From a virus: DNA of 64,000 nt. The notes beneath the pieces are model-generated. The model searched no databases. It saw only the letters and a list, made by a program, of their open reading frames with translations, and was not told where the DNA came from. Location of the stretch: positions 6,816-70,815 of IMG/VR virus record IMGVR_UViG_3300044712_002068; one strand, written 5' to 3'. The stretch's first letter is position 1, and each line of letters begins with the position of its first letter. Shown here piece by piece: positions 19,782 to 34,097 of the stretch. Made by a program: the position numbers and the translations under genes.

Positions 19782-20342
19782 TTGATGAATGTGTCTCTAT
19801 CTAAGTTCTGCAAAGACCGAAACCTAGCCAAAACCAGTGTTTATCGTCGCTGTGAAGAGTTGAGAATCAGCACCTCTGACGGGCTTACACCTGAGGCTGT
19901 AAAGCAGCTAGAGCATGAATTTGGAGCAGTTGCGCCCTCTGCGGGAAACTCAACCGTGTCTGTAGAGGTTGGCAATCACAGTATTGAATTGTCAGCGCCT
20001 CAACTGCCTCAAACCTACAGCTTGGAAGGGTTGCGCACTGGCGCGGCTGTGTCTTTTGAAGATCCTTTAGCTATTGCTGCTCAGTTTCTCAATGCGGCTG
20101 ATGGACTAAAAGACGCAATGCAGCAAGACATCGAGATTCGGCAAAGCAAGGTAAATCAAACGGTTGCCGCCAAAGAAGCGATCGCAGCCAAAAGACAGGA
20201 ATTAGAGCTTGAAGCAAGACTGTACAAGCTCCAAACCCAGAAGCTTGACAGCACACTGAGCAATGAAACTGCTGCTCTGCAACAGCAGTTAAAAGCCTTG
20301 CAATCTTTGGGAAAGCCCGACGCCTCAACCCCACAGCCCTAA
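19782..20342 (+). CDS. HTH plus coiled-coil protein
   Basis: SLSKFCKDRNLAKTSVYRRC HTH; coiled-coil C-half; GGAAC/GTTCC repeats upstream. Confidence 0.55.
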   Translation: MMNVSLSKFCKDRNLAKTSVYRRCEELRISTSDGLTPEAVKQLEHEFGAVAPSAGNSTVSVEVGNHSIELSAPQLPQTYSLEGLRTGAAVSFEDPLAIAAQFLNAADGLKDAMQQDIEIRQSKVNQTVAAKEAIAAKRQELELEARLYKLQTQKLDSTLSNETAALQQQLKALQSLGKPDASTPQP

Positions 20343-20620
20343 TCATTGCCGTGCTGGTGGCGATCGCCGCTGGCATGGCAATCACCTCGCAGCCCTGCAA
20401 ACCCACGCTGATCAACGCCAACACACCGCCCCTAGAACAATGAGCAAAATCACAGTTTACGTTCGCCATGCACCCATCGGAGAAGAGATTTTTTGGTGTA
20501 TTGCCATGATTCTGGCGATCGCCCTATCACTGGCCGTAATGATTGCGCTGTGGCGGTTTGGCTCGATCGGTGGGTTTGTGATTGGGTTTCTGTGCTGCTA
20601 CCTGATGAGGAAATAGAAGC

Positions 20621-20854
20621 ATGAAAATGCGAGCGATTTACGAGTTTTTGGCTAACCAGGCCATTGAGATGGCCACCGTAAACTGGCTCTATTTCTGGGC
20701 TCGCGAAACTGAGGCCAGACAAGAGGCAGACCCAGAACTAGTCCGTCTGCTCGGTCGAATTTCAGCCCGAGCCTATAGGCGAGCGCATCAACATGCCAGA
20801 CGGGCTCTGATGTGGAGCCGAAAGGCATCTAGCACCCCTAGAACGGAGGTATAA
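20621..20854 (+). CDS. Hypothetical protein
   Basis: ORF co-oriented in 19782-24340 operon. Confidence 0.45.
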   Translation: MKMRAIYEFLANQAIEMATVNWLYFWARETEARQEADPELVRLLGRISARAYRRAHQHARRALMWSRKASSTPRTEV

Positions 20855-20859
20855 GCCCG

Positions 20860-21318
20860 GTGAGAATTTTCTATCAGATTCAACGCAGACCGGCGTTTTA
20901 CGCAGGGATTGCACTGGTAGGCATCCAGTTGATCCTATCTGCACCCAGCCTCGAATCGCAGATGAAAGAACAGGAAATGAGGCGAGGCGAGCGCATGAGC
21001 GAGCGCAAAGCTCAGACCGAGCTAAAGCTACAGGATCAAGCCCGTGCCGAGCGTGCCGAGATTGCCCTAAAACGCTATCAGACCGGGTGTCTGAGGGTGA
21101 TTAACCGAGACAACCAAAACAAGCCGATCTCCCTAAACGAGGGTGAACCCGTGCTTGATTATTGGAACTCGAAACCCCTAGCACCGGGCGTCGTGGTCTG
21201 CGACAACTTTGGCGTAACGGGTGTTATCGACCAAAACCAAAAAGTCTCGGAACTAGCTGTATTGCTGGATTTGAGCCTGATACCTGATGCCATTAACAAA
21301 GTAGACGGAGGACATTGA
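20860..21318 (+). CDS. Membrane-anchored hypothetical protein
   Basis: N-terminal hydrophobic helix, RY..GC and VCD..G.TG motifs. Confidence 0.55.
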   Translation: MRIFYQIQRRPAFYAGIALVGIQLILSAPSLESQMKEQEMRRGERMSERKAQTELKLQDQARAERAEIALKRYQTGCLRVINRDNQNKPISLNEGEPVLDYWNSKPLAPGVVVCDNFGVTGVIDQNQKVSELAVLLDLSLIPDAINKVDGGH

Positions 21319-21319
21319 T

Positions 21320-22057
21320 TTGAAAGCATTACGTTGGATTGTTGTTATTTTGACGCTGGTTTTGCTGTCAGCCTTGACCATGCTGAACGTGCAGCCCTAC
21401 ATCAGCATGGCTCGTCAATTGGTGGCCATGATCACCGATGTGCCATTCCTTGATTTCCTCATGCTCATTCCACTGGTCAGCAGCGTGATCAGCCTCGTTG
21501 GGCGAATTGCCGCTGATGCGTTTGGTGTGGCGCTGTGGGGCGTTTTGCAACTGCTGCAAGTGCTACCAGGCATCATGCGGGGTGATTTGAAGATCCTCGA
21601 TACCTTGATCCGGGGTGTGAACAGCATCGTTCCCCATGTGATTAAAGAGAGCGATTCTGAGGTTTTGCAAGAGCTGAAAGAGGACTACAACGCTGCGCCT
21701 AAGAAATGGCTCAAGCGTGCTGGCACGCTGGCGATCGTGGCCTATTTGGTGGATACCGTGCTCTGCTTTTTGCGGTTTCCTCCCTATCAGGGGGGCGTGC
21801 TGGGGTTCTGGAATGACGTGCAAATGGGTGTGCAGACCCTTGATTCTGTGGACTGGGCAAACCTCACCAGTGCGATCGCCACTCTATTCGGCTTTGAGTT
21901 GATTTTGACCTTTGCGATCTGGATTGCTCAAGGCATGGCCCTATTTAACCGACGACGCACGCCTGTGCAGCAGACGCAGCAACAGCAGCAGACGCAGCAG
22001 CCACCGCAAGGGGGCACCTACTACAACGGACGGAGACGGGGCCGAGCTTACCCCTAA
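21320..22057 (+). CDS. Multi-pass membrane protein
   Basis: Several long hydrophobic segments, Gln-rich basic tail. Confidence 0.65.
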   Translation: MKALRWIVVILTLVLLSALTMLNVQPYISMARQLVAMITDVPFLDFLMLIPLVSSVISLVGRIAADAFGVALWGVLQLLQVLPGIMRGDLKILDTLIRGVNSIVPHVIKESDSEVLQELKEDYNAAPKKWLKRAGTLAIVAYLVDTVLCFLRFPPYQGGVLGFWNDVQMGVQTLDSVDWANLTSAIATLFGFELILTFAIWIAQGMALFNRRRTPVQQTQQQQQTQQPPQGGTYYNGRRRGRAYP

Positions 22058-22113
22058 GCATCTAAACGCAACGGGGTGGGCAGTGCTCACCCCTTATTTT
22101 TGAGGTTGGAATC

Positions 22114-23649
22114 ATGCAGCAAGATTTTGAAAATCCAGGGTTTGAGACAGGTAAGATTTGGGCGATCGGTTGGGGTGTGGCGGCATTCTTGAGCCTAGCC
22201 AGTGGGGGCATATTGGGGGCGATCGCCTTTGGGCTGCTGGCCTTTGATTCGATTGCAGAGGGCGAACGCGATGACGATGACGACAGGCCACCGCACTTGA
22301 TGACTGGCAGCAATAGCAAGGCACTGCCTGCGGCCTATGGCAACCCATTCGAGCCCCTACCCAACACACCCCCACCATTCACGGGCTATATCGACCCGTT
22401 TGCACCCTTTGATCAGGCATCTGAGCAGGCTGCTGAGGCGTTCACCATCCCTGACGGGGTAGACGTGTTTGCAGAGCCTCAAGAGGTGCCCAGAATGCCC
22501 GTGCAGCCACCCGTAAGCGTGCAGGTATCGCCTGCAATAGACATCCATAACCATATCGAGCCTGCTGCTGCCCAGAGAGCGGTTAGAACCGCTTCCCCAG
22601 CCCAGTCAGACCGTAGAACCCTAGCACCTGACCTGTCGATGTATCCCGACCCTAAGCAGAGGATGCAGGTTTTGCTTAAGGCTATGGCTCAGAGCGGTTT
22701 TCCCGTTGGGTCGCTGATCAACCACCCCTTTGTTTGGTGCTGGGGGCGATCGCAATCTGGAAAGACCACGATCGCCATCATGTTGGCAATGGCTCGCCTC
22801 GCTATGGGCCACAAAATCAGCTATTTCACCACTGATGATGATTACCCCAGCGATCTGAAGTGGTCACGGGTTGAGGACTCTGCGGAAGGGTACGCATTCG
22901 CCCTAGACGACGTAACAGCAACGATCGTCGCTGCATCTAAGGGCAAGCTCGCCGGTAATGGTTGGGTGTTCGATGAGATGTTTGCGGCCTACACTCAGCA
23001 TGGTGTCGCGATTCAGCCCCTACTCACTGCCGTGCTAATGAAAGGAGCTAAGACCCGATCGGGGTCGATTGGCATCTCGCAGGCAGACACCAGCAGCGCT
23101 CATGGCCTAAAGGGGATTGATGCAGCATGGCGAGATGAACGGGTGAGCATTCAGGCGCTGCATGTTGAGGATGCGCTCGGCAACCGTCAGCCGACAGGGC
23201 GCTATCTGGTAGCGAGGGGCGAGACAGATGAAGAATGGATTTTACCCGAGTGGATGCTCACCGAATTGAATCAGTGGGGCTCGCCTGATCCAGTGGTTTG
23301 GATGCAGCGACACTTCCCTGAATTGGGGCAAACTGCGTTTTCAGGCGAGCCGAAAAACACCGAAAAACCGTTTTCGGAGCCGAAAAATTTTCGGGTTGCC
23401 GAAAAAGCCGAAAACCCTATCGAAAACAGGGGTTTGAGCCCGGTCGAGGTCATTTTCGAAAATGACCGAAAAACTCTTTTCACCCGGTTTTCGGTGCCAT
23501 TTGAGCAGGCGAAAGAGCTAGTTGAAAAACAGGTCGAGACATTGGGCAAGACGGAAGCGATCAAGCTGCTCTGGGGGGTTAGCCCTGGCAGCAGCAAGGC
23601 ATATCAGAGCGCACTGGAAGAGTACAAAATTCTCACAGGAGAAGAGTAA
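22114..23649 (+). CDS. Membrane-anchored P-loop ATPase (FtsK/HerA/VirB4-like)
   Basis: N-terminal TM segment, Pro-rich linker, Walker A GRSQSGKTT, Walker B WVFDE, ISQ motif. Confidence 0.65.
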   Translation: MQQDFENPGFETGKIWAIGWGVAAFLSLASGGILGAIAFGLLAFDSIAEGERDDDDDRPPHLMTGSNSKALPAAYGNPFEPLPNTPPPFTGYIDPFAPFDQASEQAAEAFTIPDGVDVFAEPQEVPRMPVQPPVSVQVSPAIDIHNHIEPAAAQRAVRTASPAQSDRRTLAPDLSMYPDPKQRMQVLLKAMAQSGFPVGSLINHPFVWCWGRSQSGKTTIAIMLAMARLAMGHKISYFTTDDDYPSDLKWSRVEDSAEGYAFALDDVTATIVAASKGKLAGNGWVFDEMFAAYTQHGVAIQPLLTAVLMKGAKTRSGSIGISQADTSSAHGLKGIDAAWRDERVSIQALHVEDALGNRQPTGRYLVARGETDEEWILPEWMLTELNQWGSPDPVVWMQRHFPELGQTAFSGEPKNTEKPFSEPKNFRVAEKAENPIENRGLSPVEVIFENDRKTLFTRFSVPFEQAKELVEKQVETLGKTEAIKLLWGVSPGSSKAYQSALEEYKILTGEE

Positions 23650-23855
23650 TGTTGAGTTTTTTTGAGTGGTTATTTAGCCCATTGGAACCCACTACGCAGC
23701 CCGAACCCGAGCCCATGATCGACACCGATATCGACCTTGATGAGGAAATCTTTGGACGGTTGCAGGCACTAGAGCAAGACAACGATAATTTACGGCTGCG
23801 ACTGGCCAGCCTAGAGCAGCAGTTGAGTGATCTGCGCCGGACATTAGCGCGATGA
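23649..23855 (+). CDS. Small coiled-coil protein
   Basis: Coupled to ATPase stop codon. Confidence 0.5.
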   Translation: MLSFFEWLFSPLEPTTQPEPEPMIDTDIDLDEEIFGRLQALEQDNDNLRLRLASLEQQLSDLRRTLAR

Positions 23856-24340
23856 GGGTTGACTGTGATTTTCTCGGCAGAGTTGCCGACCTCGACTCAC
23901 CCGGCATCTACCTGATTTATTGCACGGCGACCAGGCTGAGTTATGTGGGGTCGGCAACCAGCACAATGCACCAGCGCAGGCTTAGGCACATGAATGATTT
24001 GCGCAAGGGCACCCACCACTGTCGAGCGCTACAGCGTGACTGGAACCGATACGGCTCTGATGCGTTTGAGTTTAGAGTTCTAGAGCGCACGTCTCGAAAC
24101 CTTCTGAAGCGGGAGACGGCATGGATTATCAAACTGAATGCGGAATATAACCGGAGCTGGCCCGGTGTGCAGACTGCGATCGCACGAGATGAGAACGGCA
24201 GGATCGTGCTGCTGGCCAGCTACAGGTATTTAGACCGCATGTCCTCGCACAGGGCACCCAAAGAGGAGTTTGACTGGCTGCGGTTCCTGCTGGTCTGCGC
24301 GTTTATGTATCTGGTGTTTGATCTGTGTTTTGGCCGATAA
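23852..24340 (+). CDS. GIY-YIG endonuclease with C-terminal hydrophobic helix
   Basis: PGIYLIYC...YVGSA...R..H...L..G.HH...LQ.DW..YG...FEF.VLE. Confidence 0.8.
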   Translation: MRVDCDFLGRVADLDSPGIYLIYCTATRLSYVGSATSTMHQRRLRHMNDLRKGTHHCRALQRDWNRYGSDAFEFRVLERTSRNLLKRETAWIIKLNAEYNRSWPGVQTAIARDENGRIVLLASYRYLDRMSSHRAPKEEFDWLRFLLVCAFMYLVFDLCFGR

Positions 24341-24430
24341 AAAAGCCCTGCGCCTGTGAGAGCAGGGCAGGGCTAGGGATGCATTGATGCGGCTATCGTA
24401 GCCTATTTAGGATGGGCGATCGCTCATAGC

Positions 24431-24700
24431 TTAGCCGATCTCCCAAAAACCAGTAGCGTGAATAATTTCACCTCTGTAAACCCATTTCAAGCCACCATGA
24501 AACTCGACCAAATCAAAGCAAATTTGAACGTCCTCTACTCTATCCGTCGGACTGCTTGAGTAGCCAGGTTTTTTGGTGATTCGTGGAACTTGGACAACGG
24601 TTTGCATTCGGTTTTCTGATTTCAGAAAATTGTTTGGGTCGGGCAATCTTCTGATTGCCTCTAAATATTCACTCGTGGTAACTGATTGTTGCTCAGCCAT
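24431..24700 (-). CDS. Hypothetical protein
   Basis: Start MAEQQ overlapping upstream gene stop. Confidence 0.45.
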   Translation of the reverse strand: MAEQQSVTTSEYLEAIRRLPDPNNFLKSENRMQTVVQVPRITKKPGYSSSPTDRVEDVQICFDLVEFHGGLKWVYRGEIIHATGFWEIG

Positions 24701-25076
24701 CGCGATCGCCCTCCATGGGTAATGTGTCCTCAAGCCTTTTGTGCTGCTCTCCAACGACCTGCAATTTGTCGATATTCGAGCAGTTGCGAGCCCATACCCG
24801 AACCCAGACATTGTGACCCCATGCAAGCTGATGATAGAGCCACCCAACGCAGGGCACCTCTCTGCCAACCCTCGAATGATGGCAGGCCATGATGTGAGGG
24901 TGAAACGGATCGTCTGATGTCAGATTTTCGACCATCTGCCGATGTTGCTCGACCGAGTACCCATTAGGGATGTCGTGGGGGTCAGTGGCGACTTTCCACG
25001 GGCATTTTGAGCATTGCTTTGTTCGGGTTAACTGCCAGGTTTCGACCATAGTTCTAGGGGCGATCGCCTCCCTCAT
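24693..25076 (-). CDS. Cys/His-rich phage protein (DUF6283-like)
   Basis: CSKCPW...MACHHS...CVGWL. Confidence 0.55.
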   Translation of the reverse strand: MREAIAPRTMVETWQLTRTKQCSKCPWKVATDPHDIPNGYSVEQHRQMVENLTSDDPFHPHIMACHHSRVGREVPCVGWLYHQLAWGHNVWVRVWARNCSNIDKLQVVGEQHKRLEDTLPMEGDRDG

Positions 25077-25356
25077 TCTCTACTGGGCCAGCAAACACAG
25101 CGCACAGCGCATCACTTAGCGATGTGTCTTCATCTTCGTCGGGGTCATCGTCATAGCTCGGAGAGTCACCCGTCAGCAGTTCAAAGATTGCCTCAGCAGC
25201 AACTAATACTGCTCGCTCTGTCGGGTGCTGCGACTCATACAGATACATCAAGTCGGCTGGTAGCCGTGCGTCATGGGTGGCGTAGATGATTTTAGCTATG
25301 TCAAAAACCACCTCTCTTTGACTGCAGTCAAACTGTGCGCTAATCGTTACTGACAT
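25054..25356 (-). CDS. Hypothetical acidic protein
   Basis: ORF in leftward operon. Confidence 0.45.
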   Translation of the reverse strand: MSVTISAQFDCSQREVVFDIAKIIYATHDARLPADLMYLYESQHPTERAVLVAAEAIFELLTGDSPSYDDDPDEDEDTSLSDALCAVFAGPVENEGGDRP

Positions 25357-25532
25357 GGCGATCGCCCTCATAATCACTAGCCTCAAACCCAGCACAATCA
25401 GATGCATCAGTTGCAGCACCGGACTGATCGGCGTTGTTAAAGTACTCCTCAAATTCGGCTGTCTGCGGGTGTGAGCAGTAGCCGAGCCAAGGCGCGTCTG
25501 GCTCGTGATAGTTGCAATCCCAGCAGGTGAGA

Positions 25533-25757
25533 TCAGGCATCGCTACTGTCCTCCACATAGAGAGTGCCATTCAGCCAAGCCTCGATAATTGCCCGAGCCA
25601 GTTCAGTCGAGCTTAGGCTGCTCGCTTCGACGCTATCCACCCACTTTTGATAATGAGATTTGCGGAGCCTGAGTCCAATAGTCTTAGGGTGCAAGGAATC
25701 AGGCGACTGCACAAATTTACCAGATTCATTCCGAGCGATCATTTCTGTTTCATGCAT
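25533..25757 (-). CDS. RHH/CopG-like regulator
   Basis: RNESGKF...KTIGLRL...ELARAIIEAWL; divergent from promoter at 25820. Confidence 0.55.
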   Translation of the reverse strand: MHETEMIARNESGKFVQSPDSLHPKTIGLRLRKSHYQKWVDSVEASSLSSTELARAIIEAWLNGTLYVEDSSDA

Positions 25758-25819
25758 ACTAACCTCTCAAATACTATCTTGCTAGCCATCGTAACCCAAA
25801 GATTAGCCACGGGCAACAA

Positions 25820-25848
25820 TTGACACCCATTGCTAGCAACGGTAATAT
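25820..25848 (+). promoter_or_regulatory. Strong sigma70-type promoter with palindrome in spacer
   Basis: TTGACA-17 bp-TAATAT; TTGCTAGCAA palindrome within spacer. Confidence 0.75.
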
Positions 25849-26056
25849 AGTACGCATGGGGCAACACCCCATCGGGAGCCGACCGAGAGAACCGGCAGGG
25901 GGTTGAGGATTCTCTCAGCGGCTGCTACCCCTACGAAAAAGCAGCCATTCACTAAGCCCGTTCTCCAGAAGTGCCCATTCAACGCAAAAGCGATCGCCCT
26001 CAGTCTCGCAAACCGAGCGATCGCCAATGCAGCACCCAACACAAGGCACTAAAACC

Positions 26057-26251
26057 ATGTTCAACGTTTCGAGCTTAATTGTCAGCACTTTTCTGATTGG
26101 TTTGATTTGGTCGCTGCTCGATCCTTTATTCCACCGTGGCAGCGGTCGGCTTGATTTTCTGGTTTCCGCTGCGACGGTTTCAGCTTTTGATCCAGGGCCA
26201 GGGCATGACTATGGTGGCCCCACTGGATCGGTAGGCAGCAGCACCCGCTAG
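26057..26251 (+). CDS. PatX-like peptide (hydrophobic leader + HRGSGR)
   Basis: MFNVSSLIVSTFLIGLIWSLLDPLF-HRGSGR-...GGPTGSVGSSTR. Confidence 0.6.
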   Translation: MFNVSSLIVSTFLIGLIWSLLDPLFHRGSGRLDFLVSAATVSAFDPGPGHDYGGPTGSVGSSTR

Positions 26252-26317
26252 GATTGAGCGCACCGCTGGGAGTAGCGCCCCAGCATCACTTGATAGGGCG
26301 ATCGCCCAAGGATAAAA

Positions 26318-26641
26318 ATGAACACAAACCCCGATGAGCTATCGCAAAACTTTCATCTCATCCGTGACGAAATCGAGCAAATCAAGCGCCTTGAAAGCGA
26401 ATTGATTTGCCGAAAGAAAATCTTAAACACTTCGATCGAAGCCTTTGTGAGGGAAGCCTTGCATGTGCTGCCCTGTGAAGCTTGGTTAGACTGCGGCAAT
26501 GGCCTATTTGTCTATATTGAGCACCCTGACAACTGGAACGATGAAAACGCGCTGAAAAATATCCAATTTATCCAACCCACCACGATCAAGAGAGAAGTTG
26601 ATCTTTGGGTTGCAGACCAAGAAGCGCTAGAAGCCGAGTAA
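26318..26641 (+). CDS. Hypothetical protein
   Basis: ATG with AAGGA RBS. Confidence 0.55.
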   Translation: MNTNPDELSQNFHLIRDEIEQIKRLESELICRKKILNTSIEAFVREALHVLPCEAWLDCGNGLFVYIEHPDNWNDENALKNIQFIQPTTIKREVDLWVADQEALEAE

Positions 26642-26687
26642 ATCACAGCCAGTCTGACAAAGACCCCATAACGTATCAACCAAAACT

Positions 26688-27689
26688 ATGGACTATATTC
26701 TCTACCATCACGTTAAACCGGGGCACCCGTGCCCTGATGGCGTTGCGGCTGCCTGGGTCGCCCATCTTAACTATCCAAGTGCAACAGTTCTAGGGGCAGC
26801 CTACGGCTATCCCGTGCCCATTGAGCCACTAGGGGGCGATCGCCTGATTATTGTCGATTTCAGCTTTCCCTCTGCGCAGTTGCAAGACTGGGCAAGGCGA
26901 GGGGTCGATATCATCCTCATCGACCATCACAAAACCGCACTGAACGACCTGGCAGGGTTTAGCGCCTCGCTCTCAGGCTGCACGTCCTACGGCACGACAG
27001 GCGAGGGGCGAATCAGCGAGCATATTAAGCTGGGAAACACGAGCATCAGACTGCTGTTTGATATGCAGGAATGCGGAGCCACACTGGCATGGAAAGAACT
27101 GTTTCCACAGACGCGGATTCCAGGGTTTCTGCGCTTTGTGCGCAGTCGTGACCTGTGGCTAGACTGCGACCTATTTGCCGACCCTATCCCACCGACGCTG
27201 ATTGTTCATGAGGCGATATCAAGCCTCAAGAATGAGATCTGTAAAGAGTTTGGCCGAGAGCATGGCGCGTTTATCCTGTTCGATTCACTGGCGTGGATGG
27301 GTGAGGCCGAGCTGCTTGCCTTTGCCTCGCCGCTGGGCATCCCGTTGGTTGAGGAAAAACGGCAGCAGGTGAGGGCGATCGCGAGCCGTTGGGAGTTGGG
27401 GCAGTTGCCTGGTCTGGCAGAAAAGGGGCAGTTTTTTGACATCCCCATCGTGGAGCTGGCCAGTGATGGCAGCGAGGATCGGTTTAAGTCTGATGTGGGG
27501 AATTACATTTGCAAGAGTGTGCCCACTGCGCCATTCTGCGCCATCGTCAACAGCGACGGCAGCTATGACCTGCGCAGCAGTCGCGATGGGTCAAACTTCG
27601 ACGTGAGTGCGATCGCCAAGCTGCTGGGGGGTGGTGGGCATCACAACGCGAGCGCATTTCGAGCAAAACCCGATTTCACGCAAGGTTAG
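26688..27689 (+). CDS. DHH/DHHA1 family phosphoesterase
   Basis: YHH..CPDG, IVDFSF, IDHHKT, DLW, GGGGHHNAS motifs. Confidence 0.88.
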   Translation: MDYILYHHVKPGHPCPDGVAAAWVAHLNYPSATVLGAAYGYPVPIEPLGGDRLIIVDFSFPSAQLQDWARRGVDIILIDHHKTALNDLAGFSASLSGCTSYGTTGEGRISEHIKLGNTSIRLLFDMQECGATLAWKELFPQTRIPGFLRFVRSRDLWLDCDLFADPIPPTLIVHEAISSLKNEICKEFGREHGAFILFDSLAWMGEAELLAFASPLGIPLVEEKRQQVRAIASRWELGQLPGLAEKGQFFDIPIVELASDGSEDRFKSDVGNYICKSVPTAPFCAIVNSDGSYDLRSSRDGSNFDVSAIAKLLGGGGHHNASAFRAKPDFTQG

Positions 27690-27987
27690 CAATGCACAGC
27701 GCTTTCAACATCCCCGTAAAATCATGATTCTCTATCTTTGTACGGCTCAGAACTTGACCTGGCAACCCATCAAATACGTTGAGCCTATGCATCGTGATCG
27801 CATTCGCGATGGATACACAGCAGCAGGATACGGCGTCATGATTCTGCGATTTGACGAGGCTCGCGATCGCGGACTTCCTCTGCCCTCGGAGCCAACAAAA
27901 AACCCGGTCGAACCGGGTAAGCAGTGACACATTGACAGTAAAACCCATTAACCCTATCAGTATTCCCTCACAGCCACCACTAGAACA

Positions 27988-28362
27988 ATGAATACTCAAG
28001 AAACTACCAACGGTGTAAAGGCCGACTTAATGCCTGAAATCCTGCTGATGTTAAAGGCGATCGCCAGCCAAAATCCACCCGCATGGCAGCGTCCACTGAG
28101 AACCTATAGCAAGTTTGAATGGTCTAAAATTGGCGCGTCAGTCGTGACCAAAGATGAGCATGGGGCAACGAGCGTTAGCTGGTGTGGCCACATCTATGTC
28201 AGAAGGTCTGGCGATAACCGCAGGTACGGCGCATCGATTTGGTTCAGTCGCTCTGCGGGTAAGGGCGATGACGACGAGCCGCAGTATTTGAGGCTGATCA
28301 CTTTTAAGGATGGAGCTAAGGCCGAGCCCTTGCCCGAGTACGTTGCCAACGCTCTGCGATAG
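27988..28362 (+). CDS. DdrB-like single-stranded DNA-binding/annealing protein
   Basis: FEWSKIGA...GHIYVRRS...WFSRSAG...YLRLITF resembles Deinococcus DdrB (FDWSLIGA..GHAYRRR..YSRG..YVTLAIF). Confidence 0.7.
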   Translation: MNTQETTNGVKADLMPEILLMLKAIASQNPPAWQRPLRTYSKFEWSKIGASVVTKDEHGATSVSWCGHIYVRRSGDNRRYGASIWFSRSAGKGDDDEPQYLRLITFKDGAKAEPLPEYVANALR

Positions 28363-28382
28363 TCACCCCTAGAACTTTTGTC

Positions 28383-28958
28383 ATGGTTGCCTACAATTTC
28401 AAGGCTCAATTTGCGCCACTGGTCGAGGCTGGCATCAAACGCCAGACCATCAGAGCCAGGGGTAAGCGACGGCACGCAGCTAAAGGCGATCGCCTGCAAC
28501 TCTACACAGGGCAGCGATCGCCCACATGCCGTAAGCTGTTGCCAGACCCAGAATGCACCGAATCAGAGGCGATCGCCATTACGGCCACGGGGCAAGTGTT
28601 TGTGGGTGTGGGTTCCAAAATTCGGCAGCTCGACCCTGAGAGCGTTCGAGAACTGGCAGTTACATCAGGCAAAGATATGGATTCACCCTCAACCTCACTA
28701 TCGCGATTTATCAAACACTGGAGGGAGACGCAAGAACCGCCAGTCTCCCTACTGGAGTTCTGGCTCCGATTGCAGCAAGTAAGCAGCATGAGCCAAGAAC
28801 GGTTTCAGGCGATCGTTGACGGGCAGGTACAGCCGGATCAAATAACCAACGTTGATCTACTGTTTATCAGCGGCGTTGTGCGTGACAAACAGGGCGAGGC
28901 TTTCACCCTGGAGTATCTACAAGCCGTGAATATGGGGCTGCTTGATAGATTCAACTAA
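28383..28958 (+). CDS. ASCH-domain protein
   Basis: YNFKAQFAPLVEAGIKRQTIR...GDRLQLYTGQR. Confidence 0.7.
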   Translation: MVAYNFKAQFAPLVEAGIKRQTIRARGKRRHAAKGDRLQLYTGQRSPTCRKLLPDPECTESEAIAITATGQVFVGVGSKIRQLDPESVRELAVTSGKDMDSPSTSLSRFIKHWRETQEPPVSLLEFWLRLQQVSSMSQERFQAIVDGQVQPDQITNVDLLFISGVVRDKQGEAFTLEYLQAVNMGLLDRFN

Positions 28959-29879
28959 GCTCACTGGGGTCAATGAGACCGAATGCTCTGCTGATTTTTG
29001 CCTAGCTTTTGATCTTTTGCTATTTTGAGAAACTTCCGCCCATTCAGGATGTTGCCATCTGTTTTGAATTGGGGTTGTAAACGCTTTTTCCACAGACCAA
29101 CCACTTCTGAGTCGTTGCCCTAAAATCCTATGATTCATGCCTAGCTCATCTCCCCAGTCGGCTAGGCACTGAGTCTTTCCATTCCACTCGACCTTCTTAT
29201 TCCTTCTGGTGTTTCTAGCTTGTTGAGCCGTCGTTGCCCATTCGCAATTTTCAATGCAATAGCTTCCATTCACGTCTCTTCTTTCAATCGTCAAACCCTT
29301 TTCTGGCACGCCCATATCATCAACAAAGTTCTGAAACACTCGCCAGCGATCGCAAACCGTAATTCCTCTACCGCCATAATCCTTCCATGCTGAATTGTTT
29401 GGATTGGTGCAGCGTTGGATCATGTTGTTCCAGATCTGCCGTACCGGATGGTCGTACAAACCATGCTTAATCCTGATGCAGCCACAAGAGCGGGTTCCCC
29501 CATTCCTAAGATTTGTTGTTGTAACAATTGCGATTTCCCCGCAATCGCACAAGCATTCCCACATCCGTCTAGGTTTCTTGTACTGGGGGTCTCTAGGTGC
29601 TTCTTTAATCACAGTCAAGCGCTCAAACCTCTGTCCCACAAGGTTCATCTGAGCGGCACGCGCTTTAAATCTTTCTGCGACCTGCTCCCTGTGCAAACAT
29701 CCACAGGATCGAGTATTAGTGTTTGTAAGTCGCGATCGTGGAACCTCAATCGCATTACCACAATCACAAATGCACTTCCAAAGCAATTCTCTTTTTTCGT
29801 TGCGACGAAACGCACCCGTTGTCGTCAATCGACCAAACCGAGTGCCTGTTTCGATCGGAAGGCATTTAGAATTATTCAT
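28917..29879 (-). CDS. Phage HNH homing endonuclease
   Basis: Two GxRFGRLT..W.C.CDCG..SCGC repeats, then MIQRC.NPN..YGGRGITVC.RW..DMG..TIERRDVNG.Y..ENC.WAT. Confidence 0.85.
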   Translation of the reverse strand: MNNSKCLPIETGTRFGRLTTTGAFRRNEKRELLWKCICDCGNAIEVPRSRLTNTNTRSCGCLHREQVAERFKARAAQMNLVGQRFERLTVIKEAPRDPQYKKPRRMWECLCDCGEIAIVTTTNLRNGGTRSCGCIRIKHGLYDHPVRQIWNNMIQRCTNPNNSAWKDYGGRGITVCDRWRVFQNFVDDMGVPEKGLTIERRDVNGSYCIENCEWATTAQQARNTRRNKKVEWNGKTQCLADWGDELGMNHRILGQRLRSGWSVEKAFTTPIQNRWQHPEWAEVSQNSKRSKARQKSAEHSVSLTPVSLVESIKQPHIHGL

Positions 29880-29991
29880 GTTGACCTGTTTAGTAGGTTG
29901 ACCGCGCCCTTGGGTATGTCCAGTACCGCAGGGGCATCCTACTATTTTACCCTCAAAAACCGCTGAAAGCTAGTGATATCAATAGGTTTGG

Positions 29992-30219
29992 TCAAACCTC
30001 GTCCGGATCAACTCGGTCAAAACATTCGATTAAATCATCCAAACTGCATTGATACGCCCTCATAAACAGCTTAACCTTTGCAAAAGACAATCTAGGGGAT
30101 TTGTCGAACCGCTCCCACTTGCTGACCGCATTGCTAGTTGTTTTAAGCACTTTGGCCACATCCTCTTGCGTTAATCCAGCTCTTAACCGCAGATCGGCAG
30201 GGGTGAGTCTATTTCTCAT
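29992..30219 (-). CDS. XRE-family HTH regulator
   Basis: LRLRAGLTQEDVAKVL....AVSKWE. Confidence 0.88.
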   Translation of the reverse strand: MRNRLTPADLRLRAGLTQEDVAKVLKTTSNAVSKWERFDKSPRLSFAKVKLFMRAYQCSLDDLIECFDRVDPDEV

Positions 30220-30282
30220 ACAATTATTACGGACTGGTCTAGCCAGCCCATTGGCTAGCTAGACCAGAAGCCCAAAAACGAC

Positions 30283-30322
30283 AACGGGCAACCCCCGCCC
30301 TGAGAAAGTTGGGGTTGCCCGT
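30283..30322. terminator. Strong hairpin (terminator or RNA structure)
   Basis: ACGGGCAACCCC...GGGGTTGCCCGT. Confidence 0.55.
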
Positions 30323-30583
30323 CCTAATTTTGCACTGAAATCAGCTCAGTGCCGTGAATTCAAAAAAGTCGTCCAGTATTTCATTAATCCGCAACATTCC
30401 CAGCGCCTTGTTGCTGTCAGCAATGTGATTCGTCTAAAGACCAAACACAAGCACCAGCAGCAGCTAGAGCCATTTAATGTCAACATTAATTAATCCTAAA
30501 AACGTACTTGCAAGATTTACGGAATTAGCAATATTGTTGTAAATAGCATTTTTCGTGGCTGTCTAATATCAGGTTTTCTCCTA

Positions 30584-31255
30584 ATGGATCTACAAAATTC
30601 AAGCCATTCAGCACTGACTGAATGGCTGTTTGGCGCTGTTCAGGGTTGCGAAGAGTTGAAAGCAAAATGCACAAGCTTGCAAGATAGAAAAACGCAAAAC
30701 CTTGTCATCGTCTGCGCTGACTCGGAGGTGGTCAATCGACTGCCGCTGCCACTGCTTGAGAGGGTTGCAATTAAAGCCATTCAGTTTGATGCGCCCTTTG
30801 TTGAAGTGTGGACCTTGGCGGAATGGACATCTGAAAGCCCCGATCGCCGCCCAGAATACGTTTACTCTGCTCAAGCTGCATTGCTGCTGGTGCGCCAAGT
30901 GGGTCTATTGCGGGTGCCGTCAGCGGCTGTGTCAATTCCTGGAATTGGGCAAAACGGCTCTATTGCGATCGCCCGAATGCATGACCACGTTGGCTTGTAT
31001 TGCGCAAATATTGAGCAGCATTGCGCTGCCAAGGCCAATGATTGGCTGGGCAAGGATATGAGCCGATATCACATCCCCAGCGAACTAGAGCGGCTCGTCC
31101 GGTCATTAGAGCAGCATGGGCGTATCGCGAGCTTTACCTATCGAGCCCTCGACTTTGAGCTGCGTGAAAAGGAGTTGACCGTTAATGCGTGGCTGGCAGA
31201 ATACCAGGGCGATCTCTGCCGTGTGGTAGAGGTGCTACATTCAGCCCTTGTGTGA
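30584..31255 (+). CDS. Hypothetical protein with C-terminal PAS-like domain
   Basis: DWLGKDMSRYHIPSELERL...FTYRA...TVNAWL...RVVEV resembles PAS fold pattern. Confidence 0.45.
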   Translation: MDLQNSSHSALTEWLFGAVQGCEELKAKCTSLQDRKTQNLVIVCADSEVVNRLPLPLLERVAIKAIQFDAPFVEVWTLAEWTSESPDRRPEYVYSAQAALLLVRQVGLLRVPSAAVSIPGIGQNGSIAIARMHDHVGLYCANIEQHCAAKANDWLGKDMSRYHIPSELERLVRSLEQHGRIASFTYRALDFELREKELTVNAWLAEYQGDLCRVVEVLHSALV

Positions 31256-31825
31256 GCCGTTAAGCGCTTTTATAGGCGCGTTAACGTCAATCCCGATCAG
31301 TCGGAAAAAAGGGGTGCTATCTCCATCGTCTCGGAGCTTGCGCCCCATTTCTAGGATCTCGATTAGATTTGGCGTTGCACCTGCAAAAATCTCACGGAGC
31401 CGTGACTCGGGCATCCTCAACAGTTCCGCCAACTGGGCAGGGCTCACGCCGAGTCTGACCATCTCTTTCCGAAGGAATTCGGCCAGGTCGCCCTCAACCT
31501 TGGCTCCTTCAGTAAACGGAATTTCGCCGGTTGCCATTCTAAACAAGTCTCTAGGCTGAGAAAACGGCAGCCCGGTTCTAGGGTCTGGAATCAATTCACC
31601 CAATGCGATTAGGGTTTCAGCGCTGGGCTCGTTGGCGATCACGCCCTCTGTATTGTGGCGATTTTTCCGCAGTCGCCCAATGGTAGACGACCCGACGCCA
31701 GCATCACCGCTTAGAGCCTTAGACGCTCGACTCATATCGTTTTGACTAACAAAAAGCCTGCCCTCTCCGATCAAGCTGTCGAGGTAGAGGGCGATTTGTT
31801 TTAGGGCTAAAGGTGAATAAAGCAC
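31241..31825 (-). CDS. CI-like repressor with two HTH-like domains
   Basis: SQNDMSR...GVGSSTIGRL and LGVSPAQLAELL.MPESRLREI; divergent from Cro-like gene. Confidence 0.65.
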   Translation of the reverse strand: MLYSPLALKQIALYLDSLIGEGRLFVSQNDMSRASKALSGDAGVGSSTIGRLRKNRHNTEGVIANEPSAETLIALGELIPDPRTGLPFSQPRDLFRMATGEIPFTEGAKVEGDLAEFLRKEMVRLGVSPAQLAELLRMPESRLREIFAGATPNLIEILEMGRKLRDDGDSTPFFRLIGIDVNAPIKALNGSHKG

Positions 31826-31950
31826 GGGGGTACCTGCTGCGCTACGTACAGCGTACTACACGCGAAATGAATATCAATTTTCTATCTTGCGTGTCACGCA
31901 TGATACGGGCTATAGTATTTGAAGTCCACAAACACCCCAAAAATTGCAAA

Positions 31951-32145
31951 ATGAGCGAGCGTCACGAAGTCTACAAACCTATTGCTATTAGGGCGTTAGA
32001 GCGTGGTGATGGTATCGATAAAACTTTTCACTTAATGAAGGGTTTTGTAAACCGTAGATTGATTGCCAAATGGAGCCAGGAAATTGGGGCTCGGGCTGTC
32101 AGGGTTCGAGGTAAATCAGCTCAGCGCTCTCGTAAGGCTGCATAG
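31951..32145 (+). CDS. Cro-like small basic protein
   Basis: 64 aa, divergent from repressor, first gene of early rightward operon. Confidence 0.45.
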   Translation: MSERHEVYKPIAIRALERGDGIDKTFHLMKGFVNRRLIAKWSQEIGARAVRVRGKSAQRSRKAA

Positions 32146-32451
32146 CCAAAAAATTAGCCGCTGCACCCCAGCCAGGTAGTGCAACGGCCAATTAAGTTTT
32201 CCTTCAGATCAAAGACAGCTAACTATGATTTTACATTCCGCAATAGAGAGATCTACAAGATCTCTCCGACACATTCCGGCAAAACGCCCAAAGTTGCGTC
32301 ATCAGGCGATCGCCAAAACCCTCAGAGCGCTCACTGGGCTGACAGGGTTTGAGCGTGACCACGCTGCATTGATGATCGTCAGCATTCACCCCACCGCAGG
32401 CGATCGCAGGGTTCTAGAGGCCATTGCAGAGCGGCATCTAGGGGGTGCGCT

Positions 32452-33324: not shown

Positions 33325-34097
33325 TTGCCCTTAAACAGCAAACGACCCCACGGGTCGTTATTGCCCTGCCTCCGGTCTATCAGCCGAGAGTGGGTGAGCA
33401 GGTGAAATTCTCGCTCTTTTTGTTTGGTGAGGAACGGCAGCTTGTTGGATTGGTGCAAGAGAATGCCATCCCTAACACGGCACTGCTGATCTACGAATAC
33501 AAGTTGCCGCCCAAACATACGCTGGCACCGATTTACAAAAAGAGTTTCCCCTATCCCAAGGACGGCATTTTTAGGGGTGAGGTGCAGGTGCCCCTAGAAC
33601 AAGTGTCGCCCTACGACGGTGATCAGCTTGAGCTGCCCACCAAAAAACCGACCCAGGCCCAGCAGCGAGCACAGCGCAAAGCAGAGCGAGCCAGGAAGGA
33701 AGCTGATAAGGTCGCGCAGGCTGAGGCGATCGCCAAGGCCACTCGCAGCGCAGAGCTGCGCACCGATCAGATGCTGGCTGAGGCTGCGCAAGCTGAGGAT
33801 CTGCACACTCGGCTATCGCTGCTAGAGCAAGAACGCGATTGCATTAAATCTGAGGGTGCGATGGGCTTAAAAGGTGCATGGATTGAATGCAATAAAGTCC
33901 ACGAAAAAGACTTTATTCAGGCTGTCTGGAATGCTCGCAAGCCAATCTTTAGATCGACCAAAGGAGGGCTAACAAAGAGCCAATATATCGGCAAAGAGGG
34001 CAGCTTAAAACATCAGCAAGCGGGTGCGCAGTGGAGCCGTAGACAGCGTTATGAGACTGTCTGCGCACAGATTGAAGTTCTATCAGAGGGCATTTAA
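33321..34097 (+). CDS. Hypothetical protein
   Basis: ATGA-coupled ORF; C-terminal W..RKPIF...KSQYIG motif. Confidence 0.5.
   Translation: MIALKQQTTPRVVIALPPVYQPRVGEQVKFSLFLFGEERQLVGLVQENAIPNTALLIYEYKLPPKHTLAPIYKKSFPYPKDGIFRGEVQVPLEQVSPYDGDQLELPTKKPTQAQQRAQRKAERARKEADKVAQAEAIAKATRSAELRTDQMLAEAAQAEDLHTRLSLLEQERDCIKSEGAMGLKGAWIECNKVHEKDFIQAVWNARKPIFRSTKGGLTKSQYIGKEGSLKHQQAGAQWSRRQRYETVCAQIEVLSEGI

What the first reader, a model, noticed from the sequence alone, without database searches (positions are those of the whole stretch)
26057..26251. Phage-encoded PatX/PatS-like HRGSGR peptide
Seen: the first substantial ORF after a near-consensus sigma70 promoter (25820-25848) encodes a hydrophobic leader followed by HRGSGR (26132-26149) and a C-terminal GGPTGSVGSSTR. 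Established: RGSGR is the HetR-inhibiting motif of PatS, HetN and PatX, and PatX proteins have a hydrophobic N-terminus plus HRGSGR in filamentous cyanobacteria. Inference: the phage may make a diffusible morphogen mimic that blocks HetR-dependent differentiation along the filament, or use it as a phage-to-phage signal. The Gly-rich ...GSSTR tail could be a second processed peptide. A 5-6 residue match can arise by chance, but the size, leader and promoter position agree with PatX.
Basis: partly seen in the sequence, partly recalled or inferred. Interest (0 to 1): 0.82.

Follow-up and report, generated by a model that had tools for sequence, protein, structure and literature searches.

The report
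Cyanophage small ORF carrying PatX peptide
A virus of thin filamentous cyanobacteria has a small, still unproven early gene containing the short peptide that its likely hosts use to switch off their developmental regulator HetR, so the virus may tamper with that switch.

Summary
Window 26057-26251 (alternative start 26027) is an open frame behind a TTGACA-17-TAATAT promoter. It encodes a hydrophobic N-terminal helix, then HRGSGR, then a 33-residue Gly/Pro-rich tail. The window is a complete 70.8-kb cyanophage (153 HIP1 sites).

RGSGR alone is no evidence: 0.46 copies are expected per window. The composite is rare: about 1.5e-4 per window for a small ATG ORF with a hydrophobic N-terminus followed by HRG[ST]GR.

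The phage's TnpB is closest to genomes of one order of filamentous cyanobacteria. There, 30 of 57 genomes carry F-HRGSGR, mostly in small hetR-linked PatX ORFs. Two of these share PLFHRGSGR with the phage. One shares 12 of 17 residues.

Against a working gene:
- It has no homologue anywhere searched.
- Its codon usage is weak.
- It fails NF047413.
- Its build lies outside every PatX sampled (spacer 2 aa, tail 33 aa).
- A 12/13-bp hairpin, of a kind mostly found between genes in this phage, covers the motif codons.

Best reading (about 0.5): a PatX-derived early gene whose peptide targets host HetR. The main rival is a structured leader or attenuator with a fortuitous ORF. Nothing shows expression or binding. 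The scan noted similar phage RGSGR ORFs before, on at least 13 other genomes. I found none in print.

The parts
25820..25848 (+). Sigma-70-type promoter-like site (TTGACA, 17 nt, TAATAT), about 180-210 nt upstream of the ORF starts.
   Evidence: 10 of 12 matches. 3 sites were found in 25400-26800, against 1.1 +/- 1.0 in shuffles.
25856..25872 (.). Perfect 17-bp palindrome ATGGGG-N5-CCCCAT, 8 nt after the -10 box, at the expected transcript start. It meets the GGGnnnnnCCC requirement reported for HetR binding. Its function is unknown.
   Evidence: I14. PMC4192349 passages. GGGGN5CCCC occurs 3 times in the window against 0.97 expected. GGGN5CCC occurs 12 times against 16.2 expected.
25873..26056 (+). 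Structured 5' leader with several stem-loops and two HIP1 palindromes.
   Evidence: One search lists the inverted repeats. 25856-26056 folds with z = -2.81. 25855-26320 folds with z = -2.85, and 0 of 100 shuffles fold as well. No Rfam family matches.
26057..26251 (+). Candidate gene of 64 aa (74 aa from the ATG at 26027), including the stop codon.
   Evidence: The 74-aa form is a called protein in the public protein collection (P0001). It is the best of six frames by codon score (-0.002 against -0.10 to -0.40). That score is only the 2nd percentile of 177 in-frame windows of long ORFs.
26066..26128 (+). Hydrophobic N-terminal segment (residues 4-24), either a signal sequence or a membrane anchor.
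   Evidence: maximal 11-residue hydropathy 2.73, against 1.67-2.99 in the 18 PatX ORFs that have such a segment; helix at residues 4-27.
26120..26158 (+). Extended PatX-type motif D-P-L-F-HRGSGR-L-D-F. The hexapeptide is at 26132-26149 and its Ser codon is AGC.
26133..26178 (+). Hairpin with 13-nt arms (12 of 13 paired) and a 20-nt loop, followed by TTCAGCTTTTGA. The 5' arm is the HRGSG coding sequence.
   Evidence: I2.: -28.9 kcal/mol, z = -2.40, and 3 of 200 shuffles fold as well..
26150..26248 (+). 33-residue tail after the motif: a short helix-prone stretch, then a Gly/Pro-rich stretch with low model confidence.
   Evidence: helix at residues 29-43 with pLDDT about 72, and the last 20 residues at pLDDT 55-58.
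26318..28362 (+). Downstream genes on the same strand: a 107-aa ORF, a DHH-like protein (26688-27689) and a DdrB-like protein (27988-28362). These form the early replication and recombination module that the promoter would also serve.
   Evidence: The 107-aa ORF has an AAGGA Shine-Dalgarno core.

Best explanation
The ORF is a phage copy, much rebuilt, of the mature-peptide region of host PatX. It is the first gene behind a strong early promoter.

Inferred steps: the product inserts into, or crosses, the membrane by its hydrophobic N-terminus. Host peptidases trim it, as they trim PatX. An HRGSGR-containing peptide then binds the hood domain of host HetR and stops HetR binding DNA. This would happen in the infected cell and possibly in neighbouring cells of the filament.

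Shown here: the sequence features, the cyanophage context, the presence of hetR and patX in the candidate host order, and the likeness of the motif flanks to PatX of that order.

Not shown: translation, export, processing, binding, or any effect on the host.
For: (1) Chance. The composite of a small ATG ORF, a hydrophobic N-terminus and a later HRG[ST]GR is expected 1.5e-4 times per window.

(2) Host lineage.
- HIP1 occurs 153 times against 1.8 expected.
- The phage TnpB (42892-44067) has 274 confirmed relatives among 352 pattern hits. All but one of the 80 kept lie in cyanobacterial records. The top hits, at 85% and 83%, are in G001 and G002. Both belong to the order of G005.
- All 5 of the 5 TnpB-near genomes I searched have HetR_C above the cut-off.

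(3) PatX in that order.
- 30 of 57 genomes hold F-HRGSGR-coding DNA: 31 matches against 3 for the reversed control.
- 29 matches lie in Met-started ORFs of 29-71 aa.
- 24 of those 29 have a HetR hallmark on the same strand within the 3-kb locus.

(4) Flanks.
- The phage's PLFHRGSGR is identical, 9 of 9 residues, to the PatX ORFs of G430 and G431.
- Phage residues 23-39 share 12 of 17 residues with the PatX ORF of G413.
- On a +/-5 position matrix built from 23 motifs in 20 hetR-linked ORFs across the phylum, the phage flanks score 4.18. P = 0.011 against 83,203 six-frame positions. P is 0.007-0.015 for half-widths 3-5 and 0.04 for half-width 6.
- None of 8 chance RG[ST]GR sites in cyanobacterial loci exceeds -1.04.
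- The best-match identity test gives P = 0.0035 over 12 positions and P = 0.0065 over 4 positions.

(5) Rarity of the pattern.
- D-x-x-F-HRGSGR-coding DNA occurs in 1 of 401 cyanobacterial genomes, with 0 control matches. That one is the hetR-linked ORF of G005.
- A related strict pattern hits 26 stretches in all IMG/VR. None of the 26 lies in a small hydrophobic-leader ORF or a HIP1-rich contig.

(6) Codon. The motif Ser codon is AGY in 22 of 22 PatX motifs, and AGC in the phage. AGY is 35-46% of the phage's Ser codons.

(7) Profile. My PatX profile ranks this ORF first of 1,491 six-frame segments, at E = 9e-5. The next is at 1.3. The motif drives most of this score.

(8) Literature. The hexapeptide HRGTGR binds HetR with a KD of 88 nM and abolishes its DNA binding. 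PatX needs export and cleavage to act (PMC12756182, section 8 and passages).

(9) Start context. An AAGG core lies 10 nt before ATG 26057. That is no worse than 19 of 37 other gene starts here.
Against: - Orphan. Only itself was found among 5.8 billion clustered proteins. In 1.84 billion representatives it matched itself plus four long multi-stretch proteins. It has no relative in 301 cyanobacterial genomes read in six frames (best E 0.004 per genome). It has none in IMG/VR or in named phages. Conservation therefore cannot be tested.
- Weak coding signal. The codon score is -0.002, the 2nd percentile of 177 in-frame windows. 4 of 52 spurious nested ORFs score as high.
- Hairpin over the motif. 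A 12/13-bp hairpin covers the motif codons. The window has 13 distinct such sites against about 1 expected. By my reading against the ORF list, 7 or 8 of the other 12 lie between genes or at gene ends.
- Structured region. The tile starting at 26101 is the 3rd most structured of 142.
- No such hairpin in the hosts. Host patX genes have 5-11 pairs in 25 ORFs, against 12 here.
- Build outside every PatX sampled.
- NF047413 does not match.
- The N-terminus-only profile is not significant.
- An order-specific flank matrix that leaves out the F gives P = 0.16.
- Two intermediate windows of the identity test give P = 0.08 and P = 0.17.
- The host is inferred, not shown. A 20-kb stretch of phage DNA (window 20001-40000) matches none of the five TnpB-near genomes.
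- Signal-less, unprocessed PatX did not bind HetR in a two-hybrid test (PMC12756182). Processing on both sides of the motif would therefore be needed.
Confidence: 0.5

Rival explanations
1. The stretch is a structured 5' leader with an attenuator or terminator hairpin in front of the early operon. The open frame is fortuitous, or at most a leader ORF whose translation through the hairpin modulates read-through. The peptide sequence has no function.
For: - 25855-26320 folds with z = -2.85, and 0 of 100 shuffles fold as well.
- The leader has z = -2.81 and the ORF z = -2.32, the 7th percentile of 142 tiles. The tile at 26101 is the 3rd most structured.
- The 12/13 hairpin is followed by a T-rich stretch.
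- Such hairpins are about 13-fold enriched in this phage and lie mostly between genes.
- Codon score is weak.
- No homologue exists.
- The protein-atlas recognition value is 2171, below the 2300 that 91 in 100 known proteins reach. The tool warns that this does not decide whether a gene is real.
Against: - This reading must take as chance the composite expected 1.5e-4 times per window.
- It must also take as chance the PatX-like flanks: P about 0.01, and 9 of 9 and 12 of 17 identities with PatX of the TnpB-indicated order.
- The loop is 20 nt and the T-run is broken. The terminator scan did not call the hairpin.
- 4 or 5 of the other 12 strong hairpins do lie inside long ORFs, so a hairpin does not exclude coding.
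- Several of the most structured tiles are inside genes.
- No Rfam family matches.
Confidence: 0.2
2. The ORF is PatX-derived and translated but works differently from PatX. One option is a membrane-anchored protein displaying HRGSGR at the cytoplasmic face, which would hold HetR at the membrane without processing, as a HetN-like internal display. Another is a decoy that occupies the PatX export or PatP trimming route and so lowers the host's own signal. A third is a decaying captured fragment.
For: - The motif sits 2 residues after the hydrophobic helix, with two Arg on its C-terminal side, followed by 33 more residues. This build is unlike any exported PatX sampled.
- The flank likeness points to PatX descent.
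- HetN carries the motif internally (PMC7761841, introduction passage). Its membrane association is recalled, not read.
Against: - Unprocessed cytosolic PatX did not bind HetR in a two-hybrid test (PMC12756182).
- No topology prediction tool was available.
- The charges flanking the helix are balanced (D, R, R, D), so the positive-inside rule does not decide.
- Nothing distinguishes these options from the best explanation except experiments.
Confidence: 0.17
3. The ORF is a real small single-pass membrane protein of unrelated function, such as superinfection exclusion or host take-over. HRGSGR and its flanks are coincidence.
For: - Small orphan membrane proteins are common in phage early regions (general knowledge).
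- No PatX family model matches.
- The N-terminus is not PatX-specific.
- The order-specific flank matrix is not significant.
Against: - HRG[ST]GR is expected 0.0009 times in about 21,000 coding residues at the phage's own amino-acid frequencies.
- Flank tests give P of about 0.004-0.04 in most settings.
- The same order was indicated independently by TnpB likeness.
Confidence: 0.13

Closest known systems
PatX: the small hetR-associated RG(S/T)GR protein of filamentous cyanobacteria (Asl2332 type; NCBIfam NF047413; PMC7761841, PMC12756182, PMC11298460)
   Same: Small size and a hydrophobic N-terminus without a basic n-region. HRGSGR is the exact hexapeptide in 15 of 21 hetR-linked ORFs sampled across the phylum, and in all 29 ORFs of the candidate host order (those 29 were found with an F-HRGSGR pattern). 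The Ser codon is AGY. The flanks P-L-F before the motif and L-D after it occur in PatX of that order.
   Different: It is phage-borne and not linked to hetR. There is no spacer between the leader and the motif (2 aa, against 5-67). The tail is 33 aa, against 0-16. There is no DIF1 promoter. NF047413 does not match. No similarity was detected outside the roughly 13-17 residues around the motif.
HetN of Anabaena/Nostoc PCC 7120
   Same: The RGSGR motif is internal rather than C-terminal (PMC7761841 passage). It is membrane-associated (recalled, not read).
   Different: HetN is a protein of about 287 aa in the short-chain dehydrogenase family (recalled). The phage ORF is 64 aa and has no Pfam domain.
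PatS (13-17 aa, C-terminal RGSGR)
   Same: It carries the pentapeptide that inhibits HetR (PMC7761841 abstract and passages).
   Different: PatS has no hydrophobic leader, ends at the motif and is thought to be made in the cytoplasm (PMC12756182, discussion passage).
Leader ORFs that overlap an attenuator hairpin (pyrBI type; recalled from general knowledge, not read here)
   Same: A short ORF runs through a GC-rich hairpin followed by T residues, downstream of a strong promoter and upstream of the operon.
   Different: The hairpin loop is 20 nt and the T-run is broken. Nothing shows termination. Such leader peptides have no reason to copy a host signalling peptide together with its flanks.
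Phage arbitrium peptides (AimP; recalled)
   Same: A small phage-encoded precursor with a signal sequence is processed outside the cell into a hexapeptide.
   Different: No AimR-like receptor gene was found beside the ORF: neighbours had no Pfam or NCBIfam match of that kind. The hexapeptide here copies a host signal, not a phage-specific one.

Membership tests
PatX | RG(S/T)GR motif, usually preceded by His | tested here: met
   HRGSGR lies at residues 26-31 of the 64-aa form. In my sample 15 of 21 ORFs, and 17 of 23 motifs, have His before the motif.
PatX | Hydrophobic N-terminal (Sec-type signal) segment | tested here: met
   Maximal hydropathy is 2.73, against 1.67-2.99 in 18 of 21 PatX ORFs. 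The model has a helix at residues 4-27. No signal-peptide predictor was available, so neither cleavage nor export is shown.
PatX | Motif at or near the C-terminus | tested here: not met
   The tail is 33 aa. It is 0-16 aa in 21 ORFs across the phylum and 0-11 aa in 29 ORFs of the candidate host order. One multi-motif ORF (L231) has earlier motifs further from its end.
PatX | Spacer of tens of residues between the signal segment and the motif | tested here: not met
   The spacer is 2 aa. It is 9-67 aa in 18 ORFs and 5-37 aa in 27 ORFs.
PatX | Match to the curated model NF047413 (cut-off 30 bits) | tested here: not met
   There is no hit at E <= 10 by hmmscan or by six-frame search of the whole phage. 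The test is weak. In 5 control genomes with hetR-linked RGSGR ORFs, only 1 hit passed the cut-off, and that was in the unpublished G003. The ORFs of G002 and G005 were not hit at all.
PatX | PatX-like residues flanking the motif | tested here: inconclusive
   The phylum-wide matrix gives P = 0.011 (range 0.007-0.04 over settings). There are 9 of 9 and 12 of 17 identities with single PatX ORFs. The best-identity test gives P = 0.0035 to 0.17 depending on the window. The order-wide matrix without the F gives P = 0.16.
PatX | Linkage to hetR, or a DIF1 (TCCGGA) promoter | tested here: not met
   TCCGGA occurs only at 16180 and 30002. The ORF sits in a phage early region, not beside hetR. DIF1 was also absent within 500 bp upstream of all 20 host patX ORFs examined, so this feature does not discriminate in this lineage.
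PatX | The released peptide binds HetR and blocks its DNA binding | not testable with these tools
   This needs ITC or EMSA with peptide and HetR. The literature values are for HRGTGR and Nostoc HetR (PMC12756182).
PatX | Definition given by Elhai and Khudyakov 2018 | not tested
   The paper is not held. Its criteria are known to me only through citing papers and recall.
PatS | 13-17 aa, no leader, motif at the C-terminus | tested here: not met
   The ORF is 64-74 aa, has a hydrophobic leader and has a 33-aa tail.
Intrinsic terminator or attenuator | GC-rich stem, short loop and a U-run directly after the stem | tested here: inconclusive
   The stem has 12 of 13 pairs at -28.9 kcal/mol. The loop is 20 nt and the tail TTCAGCTTTTGA has 6 T in 12. 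The consensus scan did not call it.
HetR-binding site | GGGnnnnnCCC inverted repeat (PMC4192349 passage) | tested here: met
   ATGGGG-CAACA-CCCCAT lies at 25856-25872. The pattern itself is not enriched in the window: 12 against 16.2 expected. Binding is untested.

The most novel reading that the evidence does not exclude
The phage wires HetR into its own early switch. A 17-bp GGGG-N5-CCCC palindrome, of the kind HetR binds, lies on the transcript start of the early promoter. The first gene behind that promoter makes the HetR-releasing peptide. A little read-through would then free the promoter from HetR, giving a self-reinforcing switch that senses host developmental state. The exported peptide could spread along the filament, silencing HetR-driven responses in neighbouring cells. 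One such response might be sacrifice of an infected cell by necridium formation, which unrestrained HetR can cause according to PMC7761841. That would make the peptide a viral counter-measure against a multicellular, abortive-infection-like defence.
Probability: 0.08. Interest if true: 0.9.

Novelty: new variant of a known kind. Interest (0 to 1): 0.6.

Why it matters
RGSGR peptides are the diffusible inhibitors of a classic bacterial reaction-diffusion patterning system. A virus that makes its own copy would be a virus manipulating cell-to-cell developmental signalling in a multicellular bacterium.

It would also give a handle on what HetR and PatX do in non-heterocystous filaments, which PMC11298460 calls a mystery.

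Four full-text searches found no paper on a phage-encoded PatS, PatX or RGSGR peptide. This scan had already noted comparable ORFs on at least 13 other genomes (AI notes that I did not check). This window is therefore one more instance, and an orphan one.

Its particular value is the link between the phage's motif flanks and PatX of the host order, an order that the phage's transposase indicates independently. Its particular weakness is the hairpin and the poor coding signal.

Tried and rejected
**Homologue and relative searches that found nothing useful**
- The search for homologous proteins and the search of protein representatives.
- tblastn against named phages: 3 Pseudomonas phage hits at E 1-4, which is noise.
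- Megablast of window 20000-32000 against phages.
- Pfam and NCBIfam scans of the ORF.
- Protein atlas.
- IMG/VR scan with the ORF: 11 pattern hits, none confirmed.
- IMG/VR scan with the neighbouring DHH gene: 6 pattern hits, none confirmed.
- Metagenome scan with the DHH gene. The only long relative (L242) is 36% identical, has no HIP1 and has no RG[ST]GR nearby.
- Terminase relatives are about 50% identical, both in IMG/VR (59 loci) and in 36 of 301 cyanobacterial genomes. That is too distant to test synteny or to name a host.
- A 20-kb piece of phage DNA against the five TnpB-near genomes gave no match.

**Jobs that gave no answer**
- Complex prediction, with the HetR hood domain of G005 (as an alignment) and ORF residues 21-64: no answer, score 0.00. 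This is evidence neither way.
- The look-up of sequencing runs: no RNA holder listed. There are four DNA holders labelled rhizosphere metagenome, three of them possible sources.
- Read laying: contigs only, identical to the window where they cover it, no variants. No population test of the frame was therefore possible.

**Ideas considered and dropped**
- That the palindrome at the transcript start copies host patX promoters: only 2 of 20 host patX upstreams hold GGGN5CCC, which is the background rate.
- GGGCAAC as an operator word: it occurs 26 times against 10.4 expected, but mostly inside genes.
- An RNA family: no Rfam match.
- That the host patX genes carry the same hairpin: they do not.

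**Not seen**
- I did not request the supplements of PMC12756182 (PatX and PatP distribution tables) or of PMC11298460 (Figure S1, the patX-hetR promoter). They may hold PatX sets that would widen or narrow my architecture ranges.
- Elhai and Khudyakov 2018 is not held.
Full report
**What is there.**
The + strand frame at 26027..26251 (74 aa) has a second ATG at 26057 (64 aa). It reads: a hydrophobic N-terminus, then DPLF, HRGSGR (26132-26149), LDF, and a 30-residue Ala/Ser then Gly/Pro-rich end. The frame lies in a 560-bp gap between a leftward 74-aa ORF (25533-25757) and a rightward 107-aa ORF (26318).

A TTGACA-17-TAATAT site sits at 25820-25848 (10 of 12 matches). Downstream on the same strand follow a DHH-like protein, a DdrB-like protein and further replication or recombination genes. 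The ORF would therefore be the first gene of an early operon.

A single-sequence AlphaFold model gives a confident helix at residues 4-27, a weaker helix at 29-43 and a low-confidence tail.

**What the window is.**
It covers bases 6816-70815 of a 70,815-bp virus record that has terminal repeats and is rated complete. I found an exact 127-bp repeat. PHROGs name a large terminase, portal, minor head protein and replication initiator.

The cyanobacterial HIP1 word GCGATCGC occurs 153 times against 1.8 expected. G+C is 0.48-0.57. No named phage resembles it at the DNA level.

**Chance.**
RGSGR occurs once in six frames of the window and of the whole genome.
- 0.46 copies of RGSGR and 0.70 of RG[ST]GR are expected from composition.
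- 39.5% and 51% of 200 simulations hold at least one. The pentapeptide alone therefore means nothing.
- With His in front the expectation is 0.020 per window.
- Within the 36 small ATG ORFs that start with a hydrophobic segment it is 1.5e-4.

How many windows from phages of hetR-bearing cyanobacteria the scan read is unknown to me. At a few hundred, the composite would still be expected less than once.

**Host lineage.**
The phage carries a TnpB gene (42892-44067). In the species-representative genome collection, 274 of 352 pattern hits are confirmed relatives. All but one of the 80 kept lie in cyanobacterial records, mostly filamentous genera.
- The best hit is 85% identical (G001).
- Three follow at 83% (G002, G003, G004). 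G002 is titled Elainellales.
- All five genomes I then searched (G001-G005) have the HetR hood domain above the cut-off. G003 is unpublished.
- G001, G002 and G005 fall in one order of 57 held genomes.

G+C and HIP1 density of loci from that order (0.46-0.58; 0-3.6 per kb) bracket the phage (0.53; 2.4 per kb). G001 itself is HIP1-poor.

This is an inference from one mobile gene and from composition. A 20-kb piece of phage DNA (window 20001-40000) matched none of the five genomes.

**What PatX looks like in real genomes.**
I read passages of PMC7761841, PMC12756182 and PMC11298460. They say:
- PatX is a small RG(S/T)GR protein found with HetR in filamentous cyanobacteria.
- It has a Sec-type signal sequence and must be exported and cut by the peptidase PatP.
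- The hexapeptide HRGTGR binds HetR at 88 nM and abolishes DNA binding.
- Signal-less uncut PatX does not bind.
- In Leptolyngbya BL0902 patX lies immediately upstream of hetR.

I then collected my own sample.
- HetR_C is present in 74 of 301 cyanobacterial genomes.
- I fetched 40 hetR loci and found a same-strand upstream RG[ST]GR ORF in 16 of them, 17 ORFs in all.
- Four more came from G002-G005, giving 21 ORFs.

These 21 ORFs are 29-115 aa long. 18 have a hydrophobic N-terminus. The spacer from that segment to the motif is 9-67 aa. The tail after the last motif is 0-16 aa.

In the candidate host order, 30 of 57 genomes hold F-HRGSGR-coding DNA: 31 matches against 3 for the reversed control. 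29 matches lie in Met-started ORFs of 29-71 aa with spacers of 5-37 aa and tails of 0-11 aa. 24 of the 29 have a HetR hallmark on the same strand in the locus.

**For a PatX relation.**
- *Flank matrix.* A +/-5 position matrix from the phylum-wide sample (23 motifs in 20 ORFs, without G003) scores the phage flanks at 4.18. Of 83,203 six-frame positions of the window, 1.1% score as high. The figure is 0.7-1.5% for half-widths 3-5 and 4% for half-width 6. None of 8 chance RG[ST]GR sites in cyanobacterial loci exceeded -1.04. An untrained site in the hetR locus of G001 scored 4.32.
- *Identities.* The phage's PLFHRGSGR is identical to the PatX ORFs of G430 and G431. Phage residues 23-39 share 12 of 17 residues with that of G413.
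- *Rarity.* D-x-x-F-HRGSGR-coding DNA occurs in 1 of 401 cyanobacterial genomes, namely G005's hetR-linked ORF, with no control match. A strict version hits 26 stretches in all IMG/VR. All 26 are in G+C-rich or HIP1-poor contigs, and none lies in a small hydrophobic-leader ORF.
- *Codon.* The motif Ser codon is AGY in 22 of 22 PatX motifs and in the phage. AGY is 35-46% of the phage's Ser codons.
- *Profile.* My PatX profile puts the ORF first of 1,491 six-frame segments at E = 9e-5, with the next at 1.3. The motif drives most of that score.

**Against it.**
- *Orphan.* No homologue was found in any search.
- *Family model.* NF047413 does not match. That model also missed or under-scored four of five control loci.
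- *N-terminus.* A profile of PatX N-termini ranks the phage N-terminus about 27th of 700, at E 6.8.
- *Order-wide flank tests.* A flank matrix without the F gives P = 0.16. The best-identity statistic runs from 0.0035 to 0.17 depending on the window.
- *Build.* The spacer of 2 aa and the tail of 33 aa lie outside all 50 PatX ORFs sampled.
- *Codon usage.* The score is -0.002. Long-ORF windows average 0.169 +/- 0.08 (n = 177). Nested spurious ORFs average -0.095 +/- 0.07 (n = 52), and 4 of them score as high. The frame is still clearly the best of the six.
- *Hairpin.* Bases 26133-26145 pair with 26166-26178 in 12 of 13 positions. The fold is -28.9 kcal/mol with z = -2.4. The window holds 13 distinct sites of that strength against about 1 expected. 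By my reading against, 7 or 8 of the other 12 lie between genes or at gene ends, and 4 or 5 lie inside long ORFs.
- *Structure overall.* The whole 25855-26320 stretch is more structured than all 100 shuffles. One tile of it is the third most structured of 142.
- *No hairpin in the hosts.* Host patX genes have 5-11 pairs over the motif, against 12 here.

**Weighing.**
The chance reading must absorb a composite of about 1.5e-4 per window. It must also absorb flank likeness at roughly the 1% level, to PatX of the very order that an unrelated gene points to.

The gene reading must absorb a hairpin that is uncommon inside genes here (a few per cent for a 195-bp stretch). It must also absorb a low codon score and an unprecedented build.

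I put about two in three on the motif region being PatX-derived rather than accidental. I put about 0.5 on the full chain: translated, trimmed, and acting on HetR. A leader ORF read through an attenuator would reconcile the hairpin with translation, but this is conjecture.

**Side observation.**
A perfect ATGGGG-N5-CCCCAT palindrome lies 8 nt after the -10 box (25856-25872). A passage of PMC4192349 gives the hetP site as GAGGGGTCTAACCCCTC and the structural requirement as GGGnnnnnCCC.

The pattern is not enriched in the window: 12 against 16.2 expected. The four-G form occurs 3 times against 0.97 expected. The odds of one falling within 100 bp of this promoter are therefore about 0.5-2%. Host patX upstreams do not carry it (2 of 20). 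It may equally be a 5' RNA stem or a phage operator.

**Known or new.**
Four full-text searches found no paper on phage-encoded RGSGR, PatS or PatX. The scan's own notes list 16 similar findings in at least 13 other genomes. They are unchecked AI notes. One of them gave me the NF047413 accession, which I tested.

Mechanistically this would be a known inhibitor in a new carrier and with a new build, so I class it as a new variant of a known kind.

Noticed in passing
window 25856-25872: A perfect 17-bp palindrome ATGGGG-N5-CCCCAT lies on the expected transcript start of the early promoter. It satisfies the GGGnnnnnCCC rule for HetR sites. The word GGGCAACA also occurs at 25811, just before the -35 box.
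   Followed up: partly
window, 13 sites (e.g. 1089, 6046, 18394, 30234, 30283, 44398, 51608): Strong inverted repeats with 13-nt arms and at least 12 pairs occur about 13 times more often than in simulations. Most lie between genes. Several have long loops and weak T-tails, so they may form a family of terminators or protein-binding sites.
   Followed up: partly
window 42892-44067 (-): An IS605-type TnpB gene sits next to a weak integrase-like ORF (41361-42521). Its nearest relatives (83-85% identical) are in MAGs of filamentous cyanobacteria. This was useful as a host marker.
   Followed up: yes
L152 (G004:C185), and the same place in unpublished G003: Two PatX-like ORFs lie upstream of hetR. 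The one next to hetR matches NF047413, but its motif has decayed and no RG[ST]GR is left. A 30-aa ORF further upstream ends exactly in HRGSGR. This looks like a division of labour, or a replacement in progress.
   Followed up: partly
L231 (G269:C4), 1547-1891 (-): A 115-aa hetR-linked ORF carries four RG[ST]GR motifs (H/Y-RGSGR and YRGTGR) in tandem behind one signal segment. It looks like a poly-precursor.
   Followed up: no
L271-L300 (order of G005): In this order most PatX tails after HRGSGR have the form C-x4-5-C, two cysteines 5-6 residues apart, and end 6-8 residues after the motif. This suggests a disulphide-closed C-terminal cap that the phage ORF lacks.
   Followed up: no
20 hetR-linked PatX ORFs: The Ser of RGSGR is coded by AGY in 22 of 22 cases and never by TCN. 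AGY is one transition from the ACY Thr of RGTGR.
   Followed up: partly
window 26688-28958: A DHH-like phosphoesterase (below the Pfam cut-off), a DdrB-like single-strand-binding protein (E = 7.6e-14) and a protein with a weak DprA SAM-domain match lie in a row. This is an unusual recombination module for a cyanophage.
   Followed up: no
window, whole: GGGCAAC occurs 26 times against 10.4 +/- 3.6 expected, mostly inside genes.
   Followed up: no
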